A stretch of 64,000 nt of DNA from assembly GCF_009914755.1 (NCBI RefSeq), contig NC_060931.1. One strand, given 5' to 3'. Below, piece by piece: positions 4,305 to 7,310 of this stretch. Every line of letters begins with the position of its first letter. The first letter of the stretch is position 1. Source of the stretch: the human T2T-CHM13v2.0 reference genome, Homo sapiens. The translations under genes and the position numbers were made by a program. The notes beneath the pieces were generated by a model. That model was given only the letters and a program-made list of their open reading frames with translations, was not told the DNA's origin and made no database searches.

Positions 4305-4711
4305 TGAAAGATTCTCCCCAACGCCCGAAAGCTTGAAGGAATGAGTAACTCCTCTCTTCTCAGGCCCAGTCCCAAGGCACAAGGCCACTTGTACCAGCAG
4401 CGTGAGTCAGCAAGATAGCAGAAGCAGGAAGAGAGCCGGCCAGAAGACACCTACCCTGGCCGGAAGACACGTACCCCTGAAGATCGAGAAACAGGCCATC
4501 TGGGTACCACATAGCAGTTACATCAGACTGGGACAATTCCTGTTTACGGAAGACTATAAAACCCTGCCCCCTACTCATTTGGTGCTGACGCCATTTTAGG
4601 CCTTAGCCTGCCTGCACCCAGGCGCTCATTAAAACAGCAGGTTGCTCCACACTGCCTCGTGTTGTCTGTTGGCACACTCTCAAGAGTTTGAACGGATACA
4701 AGAATCTTTCA
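4305..4711 (+). promoter_or_regulatory. 5' LTR (MER48-like), putative NFE4 promoter
   Basis: Direct repeat of 9417-9823. TATAAAA at 4555-4561, ATTAAA at 4628-4633, AP-1/NF-E2 site at 4402-4412, GATA site at 4413-4418. Family name is from recall. Confidence 0.88.
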
Positions 4712-4866
4712 TCTGGTGCCGAAACCCGGGAGGGGCTCCGGTCTTCGTCCCCCGTGGACCTACCCCTCCGCCCCAGAAAGCAGGACACAGCAGCCGGACA
4801 AAGGAAGCTCCTCAGCCTCCAGTTGCTTCTCTGTGCATGCACATCAGTCACTGATCTCACCTACTG
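4652..4866 (+). CDS. NFE4: NFE4 coding exon 1 (CUG start)
   Basis: CTG at 4652 (A at -3) opens (M)PRVVCWHTLKSLNGYKNLSSGAETREGLRSSSPVDLPLRPRKQDTAAGQRKLLSLQLLLCACTSVTDLTY(W), ending at donor TG|GTAAGT. Matches the recalled NF-E4 N-terminus; residue 43 is Lys (4778-4780). Confidence 0.85.
4714..4731 (+). other. Primer binding site complementary to the tRNA-Phe 3' end
   Basis: TGGTGCCGAAACCCGGGA, 2 nt after the LTR end, is the reverse complement of tRNA-Phe ...TCCCGGGTTTCGGCACCA. Confidence 0.92.
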
Positions 4867-5133
4867 GTAAGTTTCCCGGGAGCCCGGTTAACAAGGAAAA
4901 ATCCATACAGCCTCTCTTGGTTTCTCCAGTCTGAAAATCCAACATTGGTCCAAGAAGGCTCCGACGTGTGCCAGGTACTTGCTGATCATCTGGTCTTAGG
5001 GGGACGCCTCTAAGCCATTTGATCCCGTTCCGGGAACGAAAAAGGCAGCGGTGACGATCGCTCCTTTCATCGTCTCCCTCCACCATCCAGGATGGTCTCC
5101 TTTTTCCCTGTTTTCCCGAGCCTACCCTCAGTT

Positions 5134-7252
5134 ATGGGAAACTCCCCATCCTCAATTCCAAAAAACAGCCCTCTAGGCTGCCTCATAAAAAACCTGTAAA
5201 CCTGGCCAGGTGCGGTGGCTCATGCCTGTAATCCTAGCACTTTGCGAGGGTGAGGTGGGCGGATCACCAGGTCAGGAGGTCAAGACTATCCTGGCTAACA
5301 CGGTGAAACCCTGGCTCTACTAAAAATACAAAAAATTAGCCGGGCATGGTGGCAGGCACCTGTAGTCCCAGCTACTCAGGAGGCTGAAGCAGGAGAATGG
5401 TGTGAACCCGGGAGGCAGAGCTTGCAGTGAGCCAAGATCACACCACTGCACTCCAGCCTGGGCGACAGAGTGAGAGTCCGTAAAACAAACAAACAAACAA
5501 AAACCTGCAAACCTTAGGCCTCAGGCAAGATATCCATCCTCCTTGTCTTTTTTTGCAATTCAGACTGGCCACAATACGAATTGAATAATGGGTCCTAATG
5601 GCCCGCAAATAGAACATTCGACTTTACAATTTTAACTGATTTAAGCAATTATTGCTGACGACTGGAGAAATGGGGAAAAACTCCTTATGTCCAGCCCTGT
5701 TTGCACTCAGATCACAACCCGACCTCTGTAATTCTTGCTCACCTGTTCAAATCCTCCTCTATTCTCGCCACCCAGATCACCTTTCTCCTCCCAACTCGAC
5801 ATATTTTCCTCGTTAGATCCAGCAGACTGCTGTCCATTCCTCTCAGCCCCTGCCTCTCCCTCTCAGCCGTCTTCTTTAACCCCCTAAGCCTCCTCTTTAT
5901 CTTCTCAGCTGCGATCTTCTCAGCCTTCATCTTCCCAGTCGCCATCTTCCCAGCCCCCATCTTCCCAAGCAGCAGTATCCACTTCTTTTCCTACACTGTC
6001 CTCTCCTCAGGACAATTCTAGCATTGTCTGTACTCATTACTCATTCTCCTTCCTCACTGCCCTCTCCTGAAGCCTGTAAACCCATCCCACCACCTTACGC
6101 CCCTATCTATCCTCCACTGCCTATCAACTTAACCCTCCTTCCCCCTTCAAACCCTCAGCAGGAACCACTTTCAGGTTCTTCCTTCTCTCCCACCCATACT
6201 CGCTCAGGCACCATCTTTGGCCCATGCCCCACCCTTAGTTCAGCCCCTGTGCTAGAGAGCCCCCTTCAGAAAGTAGCAGGAACTGGAGGCATTGTTAAAG
6301 TTTATGTTCCCCTCTCCCTCAGTGATCTCTCTCAAATTAACAAAAGACTCAGTTCATTTCCAGAAGACCCTACCTCTTACATTAGAGAGTTTCAGTACCT
6401 CACCCAGTCTTATGAACTAACTTGGCATGACCTCTACATTATCCTCTCTTCCACCCTCACCCCAGAAGACTGGGGCTGTATCTGGACCCTAACTCAGGTA
6501 CATGCTGATACAATTCATCACCAAGCTCCTGCTCAGCCTACTGGTGCAAAGGCAGTCCCCAACCAGGACCCCCACTGGGATTATCAAGATGGGGCCTCTG
6601 GACGCTGCTGTCGAGACCACATGATTGTGTGCCTCCTTGCAGGACTCAAAAAGGCTGCCCATAAAGTGGTAAACTATGAAAAACTTTCAGAAATCACCCA
6701 AGGTCCTAACGAAAACCCAGCCCTTTTTATCTCTCGTTTAACTGAAGCCATGAGAAAATATACCAACCTAGACCTAGCCAGTCCAGAAGGAACCGATATT
6801 TTAAACCTTCAGTTCATCTCCCAATCCACCCCCAATATTCAGCGCCAGCTTCAAAAACTTGACAACAGCCCTCAAACCCCACAACGAGACTTTCTTAATT
6901 TAGCCTTCAAAGTCTTTAACAATCGTGATGAGGAAAGTAAAAGGCAAAAACAGGCAGGGTTTCAAATGCTTGCCTCCTCCATCAGGGGCCCTGCAGGCCA
7001 TGGGGCCACAGCTCCACACAGAAGCCTCCTAGCAATCCACCTCCACCTGGTGCCTGCTTCAAGTGCGGCAATGAAGGCCACTGGCCCACACAATGCCCAA
7101 ACCCAGGTAAACCCACGAGGCCATGCCCCCTCTGCGGAGGACCCCACTGGAAGTTGGACTGTGAGCGGCCCCTGCAAGGACCACCCCCATCCCTTCCTGA
7201 GCCAATCAAACCCTCCTACTCGGATCTCGTCAGCCTTGCCGCTGAAGACTGA
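5134..7252 (+). pseudogene. ERV gag remnant (MA-p12-CA-NC)
   Basis: MGNSPSS myristoylation-type start at 5134, interrupted by an Alu. PPPY at 6087-6098, MHR-like ITQGPNENPALFISRL. Zinc knuckles CFKCGNEGHWPTQC and CPLCGGPHWKLDC lie in a shifted frame from 7055 and end AAED-TGA. Confidence 0.9.
5204..5498 (+). mobile_element. AluY-like insertion in ERV gag
   Basis: Dimeric Alu with an (AAAC)n tail; TSD AAAAACCTG(T/C)AAACCT. Confidence 0.92.
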
Positions 7253-7310
7253 TAGTGCCTTGGAACAGACACCCCAGCAACTACCATCGCTTCATCTGAG
7301 CCAAGGGTAA
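6986..7310 (+). CDS. NFE4: NFE4 coding exon 2
   Basis: Acceptor cctcctccatcag|G GGC CCT gives (W)GPAGHGATAPHRS...LPSLHLSQG*. Exon lengths 215+325=540 nt give 179 aa plus stop. The first in-frame ATG (7071) is codon 101, as recalled for the short p14 isoform. Confidence 0.85.

What the first reader, a model, noticed from the sequence alone, without database searches (positions are those of the whole stretch)
4652..7310. NFE4 coding sequence is built entirely from an ERV: LTR U5, PBS and leader spliced to an overprinted gag frame
Seen: a CUG-started 179-codon spliced ORF. Codons 1-20 lie in the LTR, codons 21-27 (SGAETRE) span the tRNA-Phe PBS, and the intron starts at the leader splice donor (TG|GTAAGT, 4866/4867), positioned like the retroviral major donor. 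Exon 2 overlies the NC zinc knuckles in a different frame. Recalled knowledge: NF-E4 is a CUG-initiated 179-aa protein reported to partner CP2 in gamma-globin regulation, with K43 acetylation and a Met101 short isoform; all three positions fit here. Inference: this is a primate de novo protein born from non-coding and off-frame retroviral sequence, not a domesticated Gag or Env. It should then have no true ortholog outside lineages carrying this provirus, which would question equating it with the chicken NF-E4 activity. I do not know whether this origin is already published.
Basis: partly seen in the sequence, partly recalled or inferred. Interest (0 to 1): 0.85.

Follow-up and report, generated by a model that had tools for sequence, protein, structure and literature searches.

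The report
NFE4 reading frame built from provirus
The reading frame published as the human fetal-globin factor NF-E4 lies wholly inside one old, broken endogenous retrovirus, in viral sequence that never coded for this protein, and it looks young and unconstrained, so its standing as a transcription factor needs re-testing.

Summary
CTG 4652, donor 4866/4867, acceptor 6985/6986 and TAA 7308-7310 give 179 codons with K43 and M101. A chimpanzee protein named NFE4 matches 176 of 179 residues.

All of it lies in one 5.5 kb class I provirus (4305-9823). The provirus has 407-nt LTRs, a GTTTT target duplication, a tRNA-Phe primer site, and gag, RT and TM remnants.

Codons 1-20 are U5, 21-27 span the primer site, 28-72 are leader, 73-76 are in-frame gag, and 77-179 read the nucleocapsid region out of frame.

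Two one-base indels at this locus join frames that are also open in most of the human sister copies examined. The provirus's own 3' LTR closes the CTG frame after 12 codons.

The protein named NFE4 in orangutan reads other frames. Pairwise dN/dS in the NFE4 frame is about 0.9. RefSeq lists the gene as lncRNA.

So the origin claim holds. That this is a selected protein is not shown. None of 10 full-text searches found the retroviral origin in print, but the original papers are not held.

The parts
4300..4304 (+). Target-site duplication GTTTT, left copy. The right copy is at 9824-9828.
   Evidence: flanks read ...GTTTT|TGAAAG and TTCA|GTTTTG.
4305..4711 (+). 5' LTR, 407 nt, TG...CA. It holds TATAAA at 4555, ATTAAA at 4628 and the R/U5 border at 4649/4650.
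   Evidence: 376 of 406 aligned bases are identical to the 3' LTR; the 3' LTR exon ends at 9762, which corresponds to 4649.
4403..4419 (+). TGAGTCAGCA followed by AGATAG in U3, which look like an AP-1/NF-E2 site and a GATA site. The motif names are recalled.
   Evidence: present in both LTRs of this provirus. TGAGTCA is found in 0 of 19 sister copies, and AGATAG in 12 of 19.
4652..4866 (+). NFE4 coding part of exon 1. CTG start at 4652. Codons 1-20 are U5, 21-27 lie over the primer site, 28-71 are leader, and there are 2 nt of codon 72.
4679..4686 (+). One-base insertion specific to this 5' LTR. It puts CTG 4652 in frame with the rest of exon 1.
   Evidence: 19 of 19 sister copies are one base shorter here; the provirus's own 3' LTR is also shorter and reaches TGA after 12 codons.
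4714..4731 (+). Primer-binding site complementary to the 3' end of tRNA-Phe(GAA).
4867..4872 (+). Leader splice donor GTAAGT, ancestral to the family. It lies between the primer site and the gag start.
   Evidence: GTAAGT kept in 12 of 19 sister copies, GT in 18 of 19.
5134..5199 (+). Likely gag start (MGNSPSS...), cut off by an Alu insertion at about 5204-5505.
   Evidence: Reading this as the gag start is an inference.
6321..6920 (+). Gag capsid domain (Gag_p30), in the same frame as NFE4 exon 2.
   Evidence: PF02093, E 2.7e-25, residues 148-347 of ORF 5880..7310.
6986..7325 (+). NFE4 exon 2. Acceptor CATCAG|G, coding 6987-7307, TAA 7308-7310, donor GGCAG|GTAGGC.
   Evidence: AG kept at the aligned acceptor in 23 of 29 sister copies.
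6996..7002 (+). One-base deletion in this copy. It throws the reading out of the nucleocapsid frame.
   Evidence: 25 of 29 sister copies have one more base here. Where a knuckle could be scored it is in the CA frame in 10 of 15 of them, but in frame +2 in the window.
7055..7162 (+). Nucleocapsid: a CCHC knuckle at 7055-7096 and a second knuckle-like CX2CX3HX4C at 7124-7162, in frame 6941..7252. The gag stop is at 7250-7252.
7906..8127 (+). Reverse transcriptase fragment. The rest of pol is deleted.
   Evidence: PF00078, E 4.4e-9.
8408..8686 (+). Env transmembrane remnant.
   Evidence: PF00429, E 2.5e-4, 20.3 bits, below the curated cut-off of 22.5.
9417..9823 (+). 3' LTR, preceded by a purine tract. 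It holds NFE4 exon 9476-9615/9762 (acceptor in U3, poly(A) site in R).
   Evidence: and the RefSeq exon table given with the finding.

Best explanation
NFE4 is the spliced transcript of a single, internally deleted, class I HERV-F-type provirus that lies antisense in an FBXL13 intron.

The RNA starts in the 5' LTR. It uses the family's own leader splice donor, then a cryptic acceptor/donor pair around the gag-pro border, then an acceptor in the U3 of the 3' LTR. It ends at the 3' LTR poly(A) site or runs on into downstream exons.

The 179-codon 'p22 NF-E4' ORF is a young by-product of this RNA. Two frames that were already stop-free in the virus family were joined into one CUG-started ORF by a one-base insertion in U5 and a one-base deletion just inside exon 2. 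The first frame is the leader. The second is the frame beside the nucleocapsid frame.

Shown: the anatomy, the two indels, the family-wide openness of both frames, and the absence of detectable coding constraint.

Inferred:
- The ORF in its human form is limited to African apes.
- Any translation from the CUG is weak and not under selection.
- What the locus mainly contributes is an LTR-driven RNA and regulatory element.
For: Anatomy of the provirus and the ORF:
- ORF and splice sites.
- LTR pair, target-site duplication and age (30 mismatches in 406 bases, K2P 0.079).
- Gag_p30, zf-CCHC and RVT_1 domains.
- tRNA-Phe primer site.

The two indels:
- The U5 insertion is absent from 19 of 19 sister copies. 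It is also absent from the provirus's own 3' LTR, where the CTG frame stops after 12 codons.
- The deletion near 6998 is absent from 25 of 29 sister copies, and in 10 of 15 scorable ones the knuckle is in the CA frame.

Family-wide openness:
- The NFE4 C-terminal frame is stop-free over 6999-7307 in 16 of 29 sister copies.
- Over 6999-7249 it is stop-free in 19 of 29, against 16 of 29 for the gag frame and 3 of 29 for the third frame.
- The leader frame is stop-free in 11 of 19.

No sign of constraint:
- Median dN/dS in the NFE4 frame is 0.90 for the window against 16 sister copies and 0.86 among 120 sister pairs. In the gag frame it is 0.64 and 0.66.
- The chimpanzee model has 3 replacements in 179 residues. 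The orangutan model reads exon 1 and the first codons of exon 2 in other frames.
- Out-of-frame AUGs at 4837 and 7000 lie in the mRNA between the CUG and M101.
- Neither half has a Pfam hit, and AlphaFold2 on the single sequence gives mean pLDDT 41.5.
- RefSeq types the gene as lncRNA (annotation given with the finding).
Against: - Published experiments treat p22 NF-E4 as a real protein. I saw them only through later papers. They report partnership with CP2, acetylation at Lys43 by PCAF (PMC12535125, passages), and ChIP and expression decline in adult erythroid cells with an antibody (PMC3468502, passages).
- The ORF is intact in the chimpanzee model, though that record is flagged low quality and partial.
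- In the all-proviral isoform the stop lies 15 nt before the last junction, so that isoform should escape nonsense-mediated decay.
- The window alone has an unbroken pyrimidine run before the exon 2 acceptor, and this provirus alone has a perfect TGAGTCA next to a GATA motif. Both could reflect selection for expression.
- The dN/dS test compares sister copies, not orthologues. It has little power for the last few million years.
- The orthology of the orangutan model rests on its name and its closeness (33/37 and 48/57 identical), not on DNA.
Confidence: 0.62

Rival explanations
1. NFE4 is a genuine, selected de novo protein-coding gene. The two indels and the CUG start created a new small nuclear protein that partners CP2 at the gamma-globin stage selector element, and selection has kept it in African apes.
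For: - Literature seen through later papers reports a CP2/NF-E4 complex, Lys43 acetylation, and antibody ChIP at the gamma promoter.
- The chimpanzee model is 176/179 identical with the same CUG-type start.
- The two indels together link the CUG to the long C-terminal frame.
- The polypyrimidine tract before the acceptor and the TGAGTCA site are specific to this locus.
- The all-proviral isoform should be safe from nonsense-mediated decay.
Against: - dN/dS is about 0.9 in the NFE4 frame, no different from sister copies.
- Three replacements between human and chimpanzee fit neutrality better than typical constraint. This is my rough estimate from a recalled divergence of about 1.2%.
- The orangutan model reads other frames and has T at position 101.
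- Both frames are open in most sister copies, so openness needs no selection.
- No domain and no confident fold were found.
- RefSeq calls the gene lncRNA.
- NFE4 transcripts gave low or no signal in blood qPCR (PMC6331457, passages).
Confidence: 0.3
2. NFE4 is a domesticated Gag (nucleocapsid) protein, like other gag-derived host genes.
For: Exon 2 overlies the end of the capsid and the nucleocapsid DNA.
Against: Only codons 73-76 are in the gag frame. The CCHC knuckles are in another frame. The NFE4 exon 2 peptide has no Pfam hit.
Confidence: 0.01
3. The frame beside the nucleocapsid frame is an ancestral overlapping viral gene of this HERV family, about 127 codons long, and NFE4 inherited a once-functional viral accessory protein.
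For: This frame is stop-free in 19 of 29 sister copies over 6999-7249, as often as the gag frame itself at 16 of 29. Many ORFs of 127-128 residues in this frame turn up in databases.
Against: dN/dS among 120 sister pairs is 0.86 in this frame and 0.85 in the third frame, against 0.66 in the gag frame. From base composition alone an open run of 107 codons has about a 6% chance. The region is C-rich and poor in T.
Confidence: 0.04

Closest known systems
HERV-K(HML-2) Np9 and Rec: small proteins from spliced proviral RNA (recalled, not tested here)
   Same: A small protein is read from a spliced proviral transcript. For Np9 a deletion in the provirus creates the new reading. The protein has no counterpart in the viral proteome.
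   Different: NFE4 starts at a CUG in U5 and not at the env AUG. It uses leader sequence plus an off-frame gag stretch, exists at one locus only, and belongs to a class I HERV-F-type element.
LTR-driven spliced proviral lncRNAs such as the HERV-H transcripts of stem cells (recalled)
   Same: A 5' LTR promoter, the leader splice donor, splicing within or beyond the provirus, tissue-limited expression, and small unconstrained ORFs.
   Different: Published work credits NFE4 with a protein product, a partner (CP2), a modified lysine and a target promoter.
Domesticated gag genes (PEG10, ARC, PNMA family, Fv1; recalled)
   Same: The DNA comes from a retroelement gag region.
   Different: Those genes keep the gag frame and fold. 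NFE4 reads 103 of its 107 exon 2 codons out of the gag frame and has no gag domain.
Glyco-Gag of murine leukaemia virus: CUG initiation in a gammaretroviral leader (recalled)
   Same: A non-AUG (CUG) start upstream of gag in a gamma-type retroviral 5' region.
   Different: Glyco-Gag is in frame with gag and is read from unspliced RNA. The NFE4 CUG lies in U5 before the primer site, its frame was opened only by a post-integration insertion, and the RNA is spliced.
[quoted passage not shown] 1989, seen only as a reference)
   Same: The name, and a proposed role with CP2 at a globin stage selector element.
   Different: The human ORF lies in a provirus that entered the primate germ line about 18-30 million years ago, so it cannot be the orthologue of a bird factor.

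Membership tests
Class I (gamma-like) endogenous retrovirus, HERV-F group | Paired LTRs with TG...CA ends and a target-site duplication | tested here: met
   407-nt LTRs, 92.6% identical, GTTTT on both flanks.
Class I (gamma-like) endogenous retrovirus, HERV-F group | Primer-binding site complementary to tRNA-Phe | tested here: met
   4714-4731 is complementary to the 3' end of tRNA-Phe(GAA) genes of the same genome plus CCA.
Class I (gamma-like) endogenous retrovirus, HERV-F group | Gamma-type Gag capsid, CCHC nucleocapsid and RT | tested here: met
   PF02093 E 2.7e-25, PF00098 E 9.2e-5, PF00078 E 4.4e-9. Two knuckles agree with the 'two-zinc finger' HERVFA/HERVFB groups of PMC4724089 (passages).
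Class I (gamma-like) endogenous retrovirus, HERV-F group | Gamma-type Env TM | tested here: inconclusive
   PF00429 at 20.3 bits, below the cut-off of 22.5.
Class I (gamma-like) endogenous retrovirus, HERV-F group | Assignment to a named Repbase/Dfam family (HERVFH19/LTR19 or HERVFH21/LTR21A) | not testable with these tools
   No repeat library is on hand. Table S1 of PMC4724089 could not be searched.
NFE4 (p22 NF-E4) as published | 179 residues, CUG start, Lys43, Met101 | tested here: met
   Lys43 as the acetylated residue is in PMC12535125. Met101 as the start of the short isoform is recalled only.
NFE4 (p22 NF-E4) as published | Matches a database protein named NFE4 | tested here: met
   P0001, 'NFE4 isoform 2, partial [Pan troglodytes]', 179 aa, 176/179 identical, first residue L.
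Domesticated Gag protein | Reads the gag frame and keeps a gag domain | tested here: not met
   4 codons in frame, knuckles in another frame, no Pfam hit.
De novo protein-coding gene | ORF lies in ancestrally non-coding or off-frame sequence, with the enabling mutations identified | tested here: met
   U5, primer site and leader plus the off-frame nucleocapsid stretch, with two one-base indels. The 3' LTR shows the closed ancestral state.
De novo protein-coding gene | Purifying selection on the new frame | tested here: inconclusive
   dN/dS 0.90 against sister copies; 3 replacements against chimpanzee, and the orangutan model is in other frames. No orthologous DNA was available.
De novo protein-coding gene | Translation | not testable with these tools
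   Only antibody-based reports were seen, through later papers.
Orthologue of chicken NF-E4 | A gene shared by descent between birds and mammals | tested here: not met
   dates the provirus to about 18-30 million years. All named relatives are primates.

The most novel reading that the evidence does not exclude
p22 NF-E4 is a real, working nuclear protein that is only a few million years old. On this reading it was made in the ancestor of African apes when two one-base slips stitched retroviral U5, primer site and leader onto an off-frame nucleocapsid stretch. It is expressed in erythroid cells because this one provirus carries a TGAGTCA site beside a GATA site in its LTR. A regulator of fetal haemoglobin would then be a translated piece of viral non-coding RNA that exists in no model animal.
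Probability: 0.25. Interest if true: 0.85.

Novelty: new member of a known kind. Interest (0 to 1): 0.6.

Why it matters
NF-E4 is still described as a fetal-globin activator and a possible drug target (a 2025 review, PMC12535125). It also sits in lists of transcription factors. A 2026 paper names it a key regulator in mouse blood data through enrichment software (PMC13279136).

If the ORF is a young product of a primate provirus, several things follow:
- Mice cannot have it.
- It cannot be the chicken NF-E4.
- It cannot explain the fetal recruitment of gamma-globin, which I recall to be older than the great apes.
- The 'NF-E4-like' proteins predicted in macaque, siamang, orangutan and capuchin are more distant from human NFE4 than an orthologue should be. 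They are most likely sister proviruses named by similarity.

If the protein is real, it is instead one of the clearest cases in which the exact mutations that created a human regulatory protein from non-coding viral sequence can be named and tested.

Tried and rejected
Literature.
- Judged from the listings and the passages I read, none of the papers says that the NFE4 coding sequence is retroviral.
- PMC6331457 only notes another LTR (LTR101_Mam) at the 3' end of a non-coding NFE4 transcript.
- The broad search was badly designed and returned only unrelated papers.
- The original papers are not held: Zhou 2000 (PMC86334) and Jane 1995 (PMC398056). They may mention a retroviral likeness, and I could not check.
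- The provirus table in the supplement of PMC4724089 could not be read.

Structure. AlphaFold2 on the chimpanzee protein alone gave no confident fold (mean pLDDT 41.5). This says little, because single-sequence models are often poor.

Ideas considered and dropped:
- Domesticated Gag is excluded by the frame analysis.
- An ancestral overlapping viral gene is not supported by dN/dS.
- An assembly error at the two indels is unlikely, because the chimpanzee model reads through both.

Not possible with these tools: orthologous primate DNA, RNA-seq junction counts, ribosome profiling, proteomics, population variants, and a repeat-family name.
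Full report
**1. The observation**

- CTG at 4652 opens a frame that runs to the donor ACTG|GTAAGT at 4866/4867.
- Joined to the acceptor CATCAG|G at 6985/6986, it continues to TAA at 7308-7310.
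- That gives 179 codons with lysine at 43 and methionine at 101.
- The only ATG in the first exon (4837) is out of frame.

A database search with the exon 2 peptide found a 179-residue chimpanzee protein named 'NFE4 isoform 2, partial'. It begins with leucine and is identical at 176 of 179 positions, differing at 45, 114 and 151. So this is the published NFE4 ORF. Lys43 as the acetylated residue is confirmed by a 2025 review (PMC12535125, passages). Met101 as the start of a short isoform is recalled only.

**2. The provirus**

Direct repeats at 4305-4711 and 9417-9823 are two 407-nt LTRs. They begin TG and end CA and are flanked on both sides by GTTTT.

Between them lie:
- A site at 4714-4731 complementary to the 3' end of tRNA-Phe(GAA). 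The pattern matched 6 places in the same genome, and the 4 I scanned are tRNA-Phe genes.
- A likely gag start at 5134, cut by an Alu at about 5204-5505.
- A gamma-type capsid domain at 6321-6920 (Gag_p30, E 2.7e-25).
- A CCHC knuckle at 7055-7096 and a second, shorter-spaced one at 7124-7162.
- A fragment of reverse transcriptase and a weak trace of Env TM.
- A purine tract before the 3' LTR.

The LTRs differ at 30 of 406 aligned bases plus two gaps (K2P 0.079). At the usual 1.3-2.1e-9 per site per year this gives about 18-30 million years.

The human genome holds at least 24 further copies with LTR and leader, at 81-86% identity. It also gave 40 further matches to the capsid-nucleocapsid stretch. 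These counts are lower bounds.

A tRNA-Phe primer site and two knuckles fit the HERVFA/HERVFB groups of Vargiu et al. 2016 (PMC4724089, passages). I could not test which named family this copy belongs to.

**3. How the ORF maps on the provirus**

One annotated NFE4 exon ends at 9762 in the 3' LTR. This places the R/U5 border of the 5' LTR at 4649/4650, so the CTG is bases 3-5 of U5.

| Codons | Window | Origin |
|---|---|---|
| 1-20 | 4652-4711 | U5 |
| 21-27 | 4712-4732 | over the primer site |
| 28-72 | up to 4866, completed by 6986 | leader |
| 73-76 | 6987-6998 | gag, in frame |
| 77-179 | 6999-7307 | nucleocapsid region, the gag stop (7250-7252) and the start of protease, in a different frame |

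Neither half has a Pfam domain.

The isoform 4525-4866 / 6986-7325 / 9476-9762 is 969 nt and entirely proviral. Its stop lies 15 nt before the last junction. The RefSeq-selected isoform skips exon 2 and is typed lncRNA (annotation given with the finding).

**4. Which features come from the family and which are special to this locus**

I compared the window pairwise with 19 sister leaders and 29 sister nucleocapsid regions.

Features the locus shares with the family:
- The donor: GTAAGT is kept at the aligned site in 12 of 19 copies and GT in 18 of 19. Its place between the primer site and gag is that of a retroviral major donor, which is an inference.
- The acceptor AG, kept in 23 of 29.
- The exon 2 donor, kept in most copies.
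- An open leader frame, in 11 of 19.
- An open frame beside the nucleocapsid frame. Over 6999-7307 it is open in 16 of 29 copies. Over 6999-7249 it is open in 19 of 29, against 16 of 29 for gag itself and 3 of 29 for the third frame.

Features special to this locus:
- One extra base at about 4679-4686. It is absent from 19 of 19 sister copies and from the provirus's own 3' LTR. There the same CTG frame ends at TGA after 12 codons. The insertion therefore arose after integration, and it is what opens the CUG-started frame.
- One missing base at about 6996-7002. It is present in 25 of 29 sister copies. Where a knuckle can be scored in them it is in the capsid frame in 10 of 15. In 10 of 29 the first stop, counted from the aligned exon 2 start, is at codon 88, the gag terminator. 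This deletion turns an in-frame entry into gag into the long off-frame reading.
- An unbroken pyrimidine run before the acceptor, seen in no sister copy.
- A perfect TGAGTCA beside AGATAG in U3, in both LTRs. TGAGTCA is found in 0 of 19 sister copies.

The CTG itself is present in 6 of 19 sister copies. The others have CCG (5), CCA (5) or other triplets (3), the pattern expected from CpG decay.

**5. Is the ORF under selection?**

- From base composition alone, an open run of 107 codons in exon 2 has about a 6% chance, and one of 72 codons in exon 1 about 10%. The family data show that both frames were simply inherited open.
- Median pairwise dN/dS over 6999-7249 is 0.90 in the NFE4 frame (window against 16 gapless sister copies) and 0.86 among 120 sister pairs. 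The gag frame gives 0.64 and 0.66, the trace of past viral selection. The other 13 of 29 copies had gaps in this stretch and were left out.
- Against chimpanzee there are 3 replacements in 179 codons. I could not count silent changes. With a recalled neutral divergence of about 1.2%, this fits neutrality somewhat better than ordinary constraint.
- The orangutan protein named 'NFE4 isoform 2' has 112 residues. It reads exon 1 in the neighbouring frame (48 of 57 identical to window frame 4692..). It then reads G-A-L-Q-A in the third frame, and then the NFE4 frame (33 of 37 identical), with T in place of M101. This is what a copy without the deletion near 6998 would give, so the human-type ORF is probably younger than the split from orangutan. 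The caveats are that orthology rests on the name and on closeness, and that I had no DNA.
- In the mRNA, out-of-frame AUGs at 4837 (5 codons) and 7000 (10 codons, strong context) lie between the CUG and the M101 AUG.
- AlphaFold2 on the single sequence gave mean pLDDT 41.5 with one helix at 47-64. This is weak evidence.

**6. What speaks for a real protein**

Later papers report a CP2/NF-E4 complex at the gamma-globin stage selector element (PMC2938217, PMC6007553, PMC4150809; passages). They also report acetylation at Lys43 by PCAF. NF-E4 levels were reported to fall in adult erythroid cells, and NF-E4 ChIP signal was reported at the gamma promoter. That work used an antibody supplied by the discovering laboratory (PMC3468502). 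The primary papers are not held, so I could not judge them.

**7. Verdict**

NFE4 is not a domesticated Gag or Env, and it cannot be the orthologue of the chicken NF-E4 activity.

Whether it is a selected protein stays open. I put about 0.3 on that and about 0.6 on an unconstrained ORF in an LTR-driven proviral RNA.

I found no statement of the retroviral origin in ten full-text searches. Any repeat overlay would show it, though, and the original papers and some supplements were out of reach. I therefore rate it as a new member of a known kind (ORFs and lncRNAs derived from endogenous retroviruses) and not as categorically new.

Noticed in passing
window 4403-4419 and 9515-9531: Both LTRs of this provirus carry TGAGTCAGCA followed by AGATAG, which look like an AP-1/NF-E2 site next to a GATA site (names recalled). 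None of 19 sister copies has TGAGTCA. They read TGCGTCA, TGTGTCA, TGCATCA and similar. This could explain erythroid or myeloid activity of this one LTR. RefSeq lists enhancers at 4046-5245 and 4703-5216.
   Followed up: partly
window 4245-4416, minus strand: Alternative FBXL13 exons (4245-4331 and 4245-4416 in the annotation given) overlap the U3 of the 5' LTR (which starts at 4305) on the opposite strand. The same LTR therefore supplies exon sequence to the host gene in antisense.
   Followed up: no
window 9615/9616: The donor of the annotated NFE4 exon 9476-9615 reads CAG|AT in this assembly, not GT. The matching place in the 5' LTR reads GG|GT. This may be a variant of this genome, a non-canonical site, or an alignment effect of the transcript.
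   Followed up: no
proteins P0006, P0024, P0028, P0032, P0039, P0058, P0059: Automated pipelines name proteins 'transcription factor NF-E4(-like)' in macaques, siamang, orangutan, chimpanzee and a capuchin. They are 67-84% identical to the human ORF and carry leader-plus-off-frame-nucleocapsid readings. They are most likely sister proviruses named by similarity. The capuchin hit shows that the virus family also exists in a New World monkey.
   Followed up: partly
window 6928-7310 and sister copies L022-L050: An ORF of about 127 codons in the frame beside the nucleocapsid frame, running past the gag stop, is still open in 16 of 29 sister copies. dN/dS gives no sign that it was ever a viral gene. 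Its persistence is nonetheless as good as that of gag itself.
   Followed up: yes
window 7316 onward in the spliced RNA: In the 969-nt all-proviral isoform, an AUG at 7316 opens a 99-codon ORF that runs across the exon 2 / 3' LTR junction. Nothing is known about it.
   Followed up: no
literature: PMC13279136: A 2026 paper names NFE4 a key transcription factor of neutrophil genes in mouse stroke data, by enrichment software (ChEA3). A factor encoded by a primate provirus cannot act in mice, so such calls reflect co-expression libraries and not biology.
   Followed up: partly
window 5204-5505: An Alu sits in the matrix part of gag, flanked by a duplication of about 15 nt (AAAACCTG-AAACCT type).
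   Followed up: no
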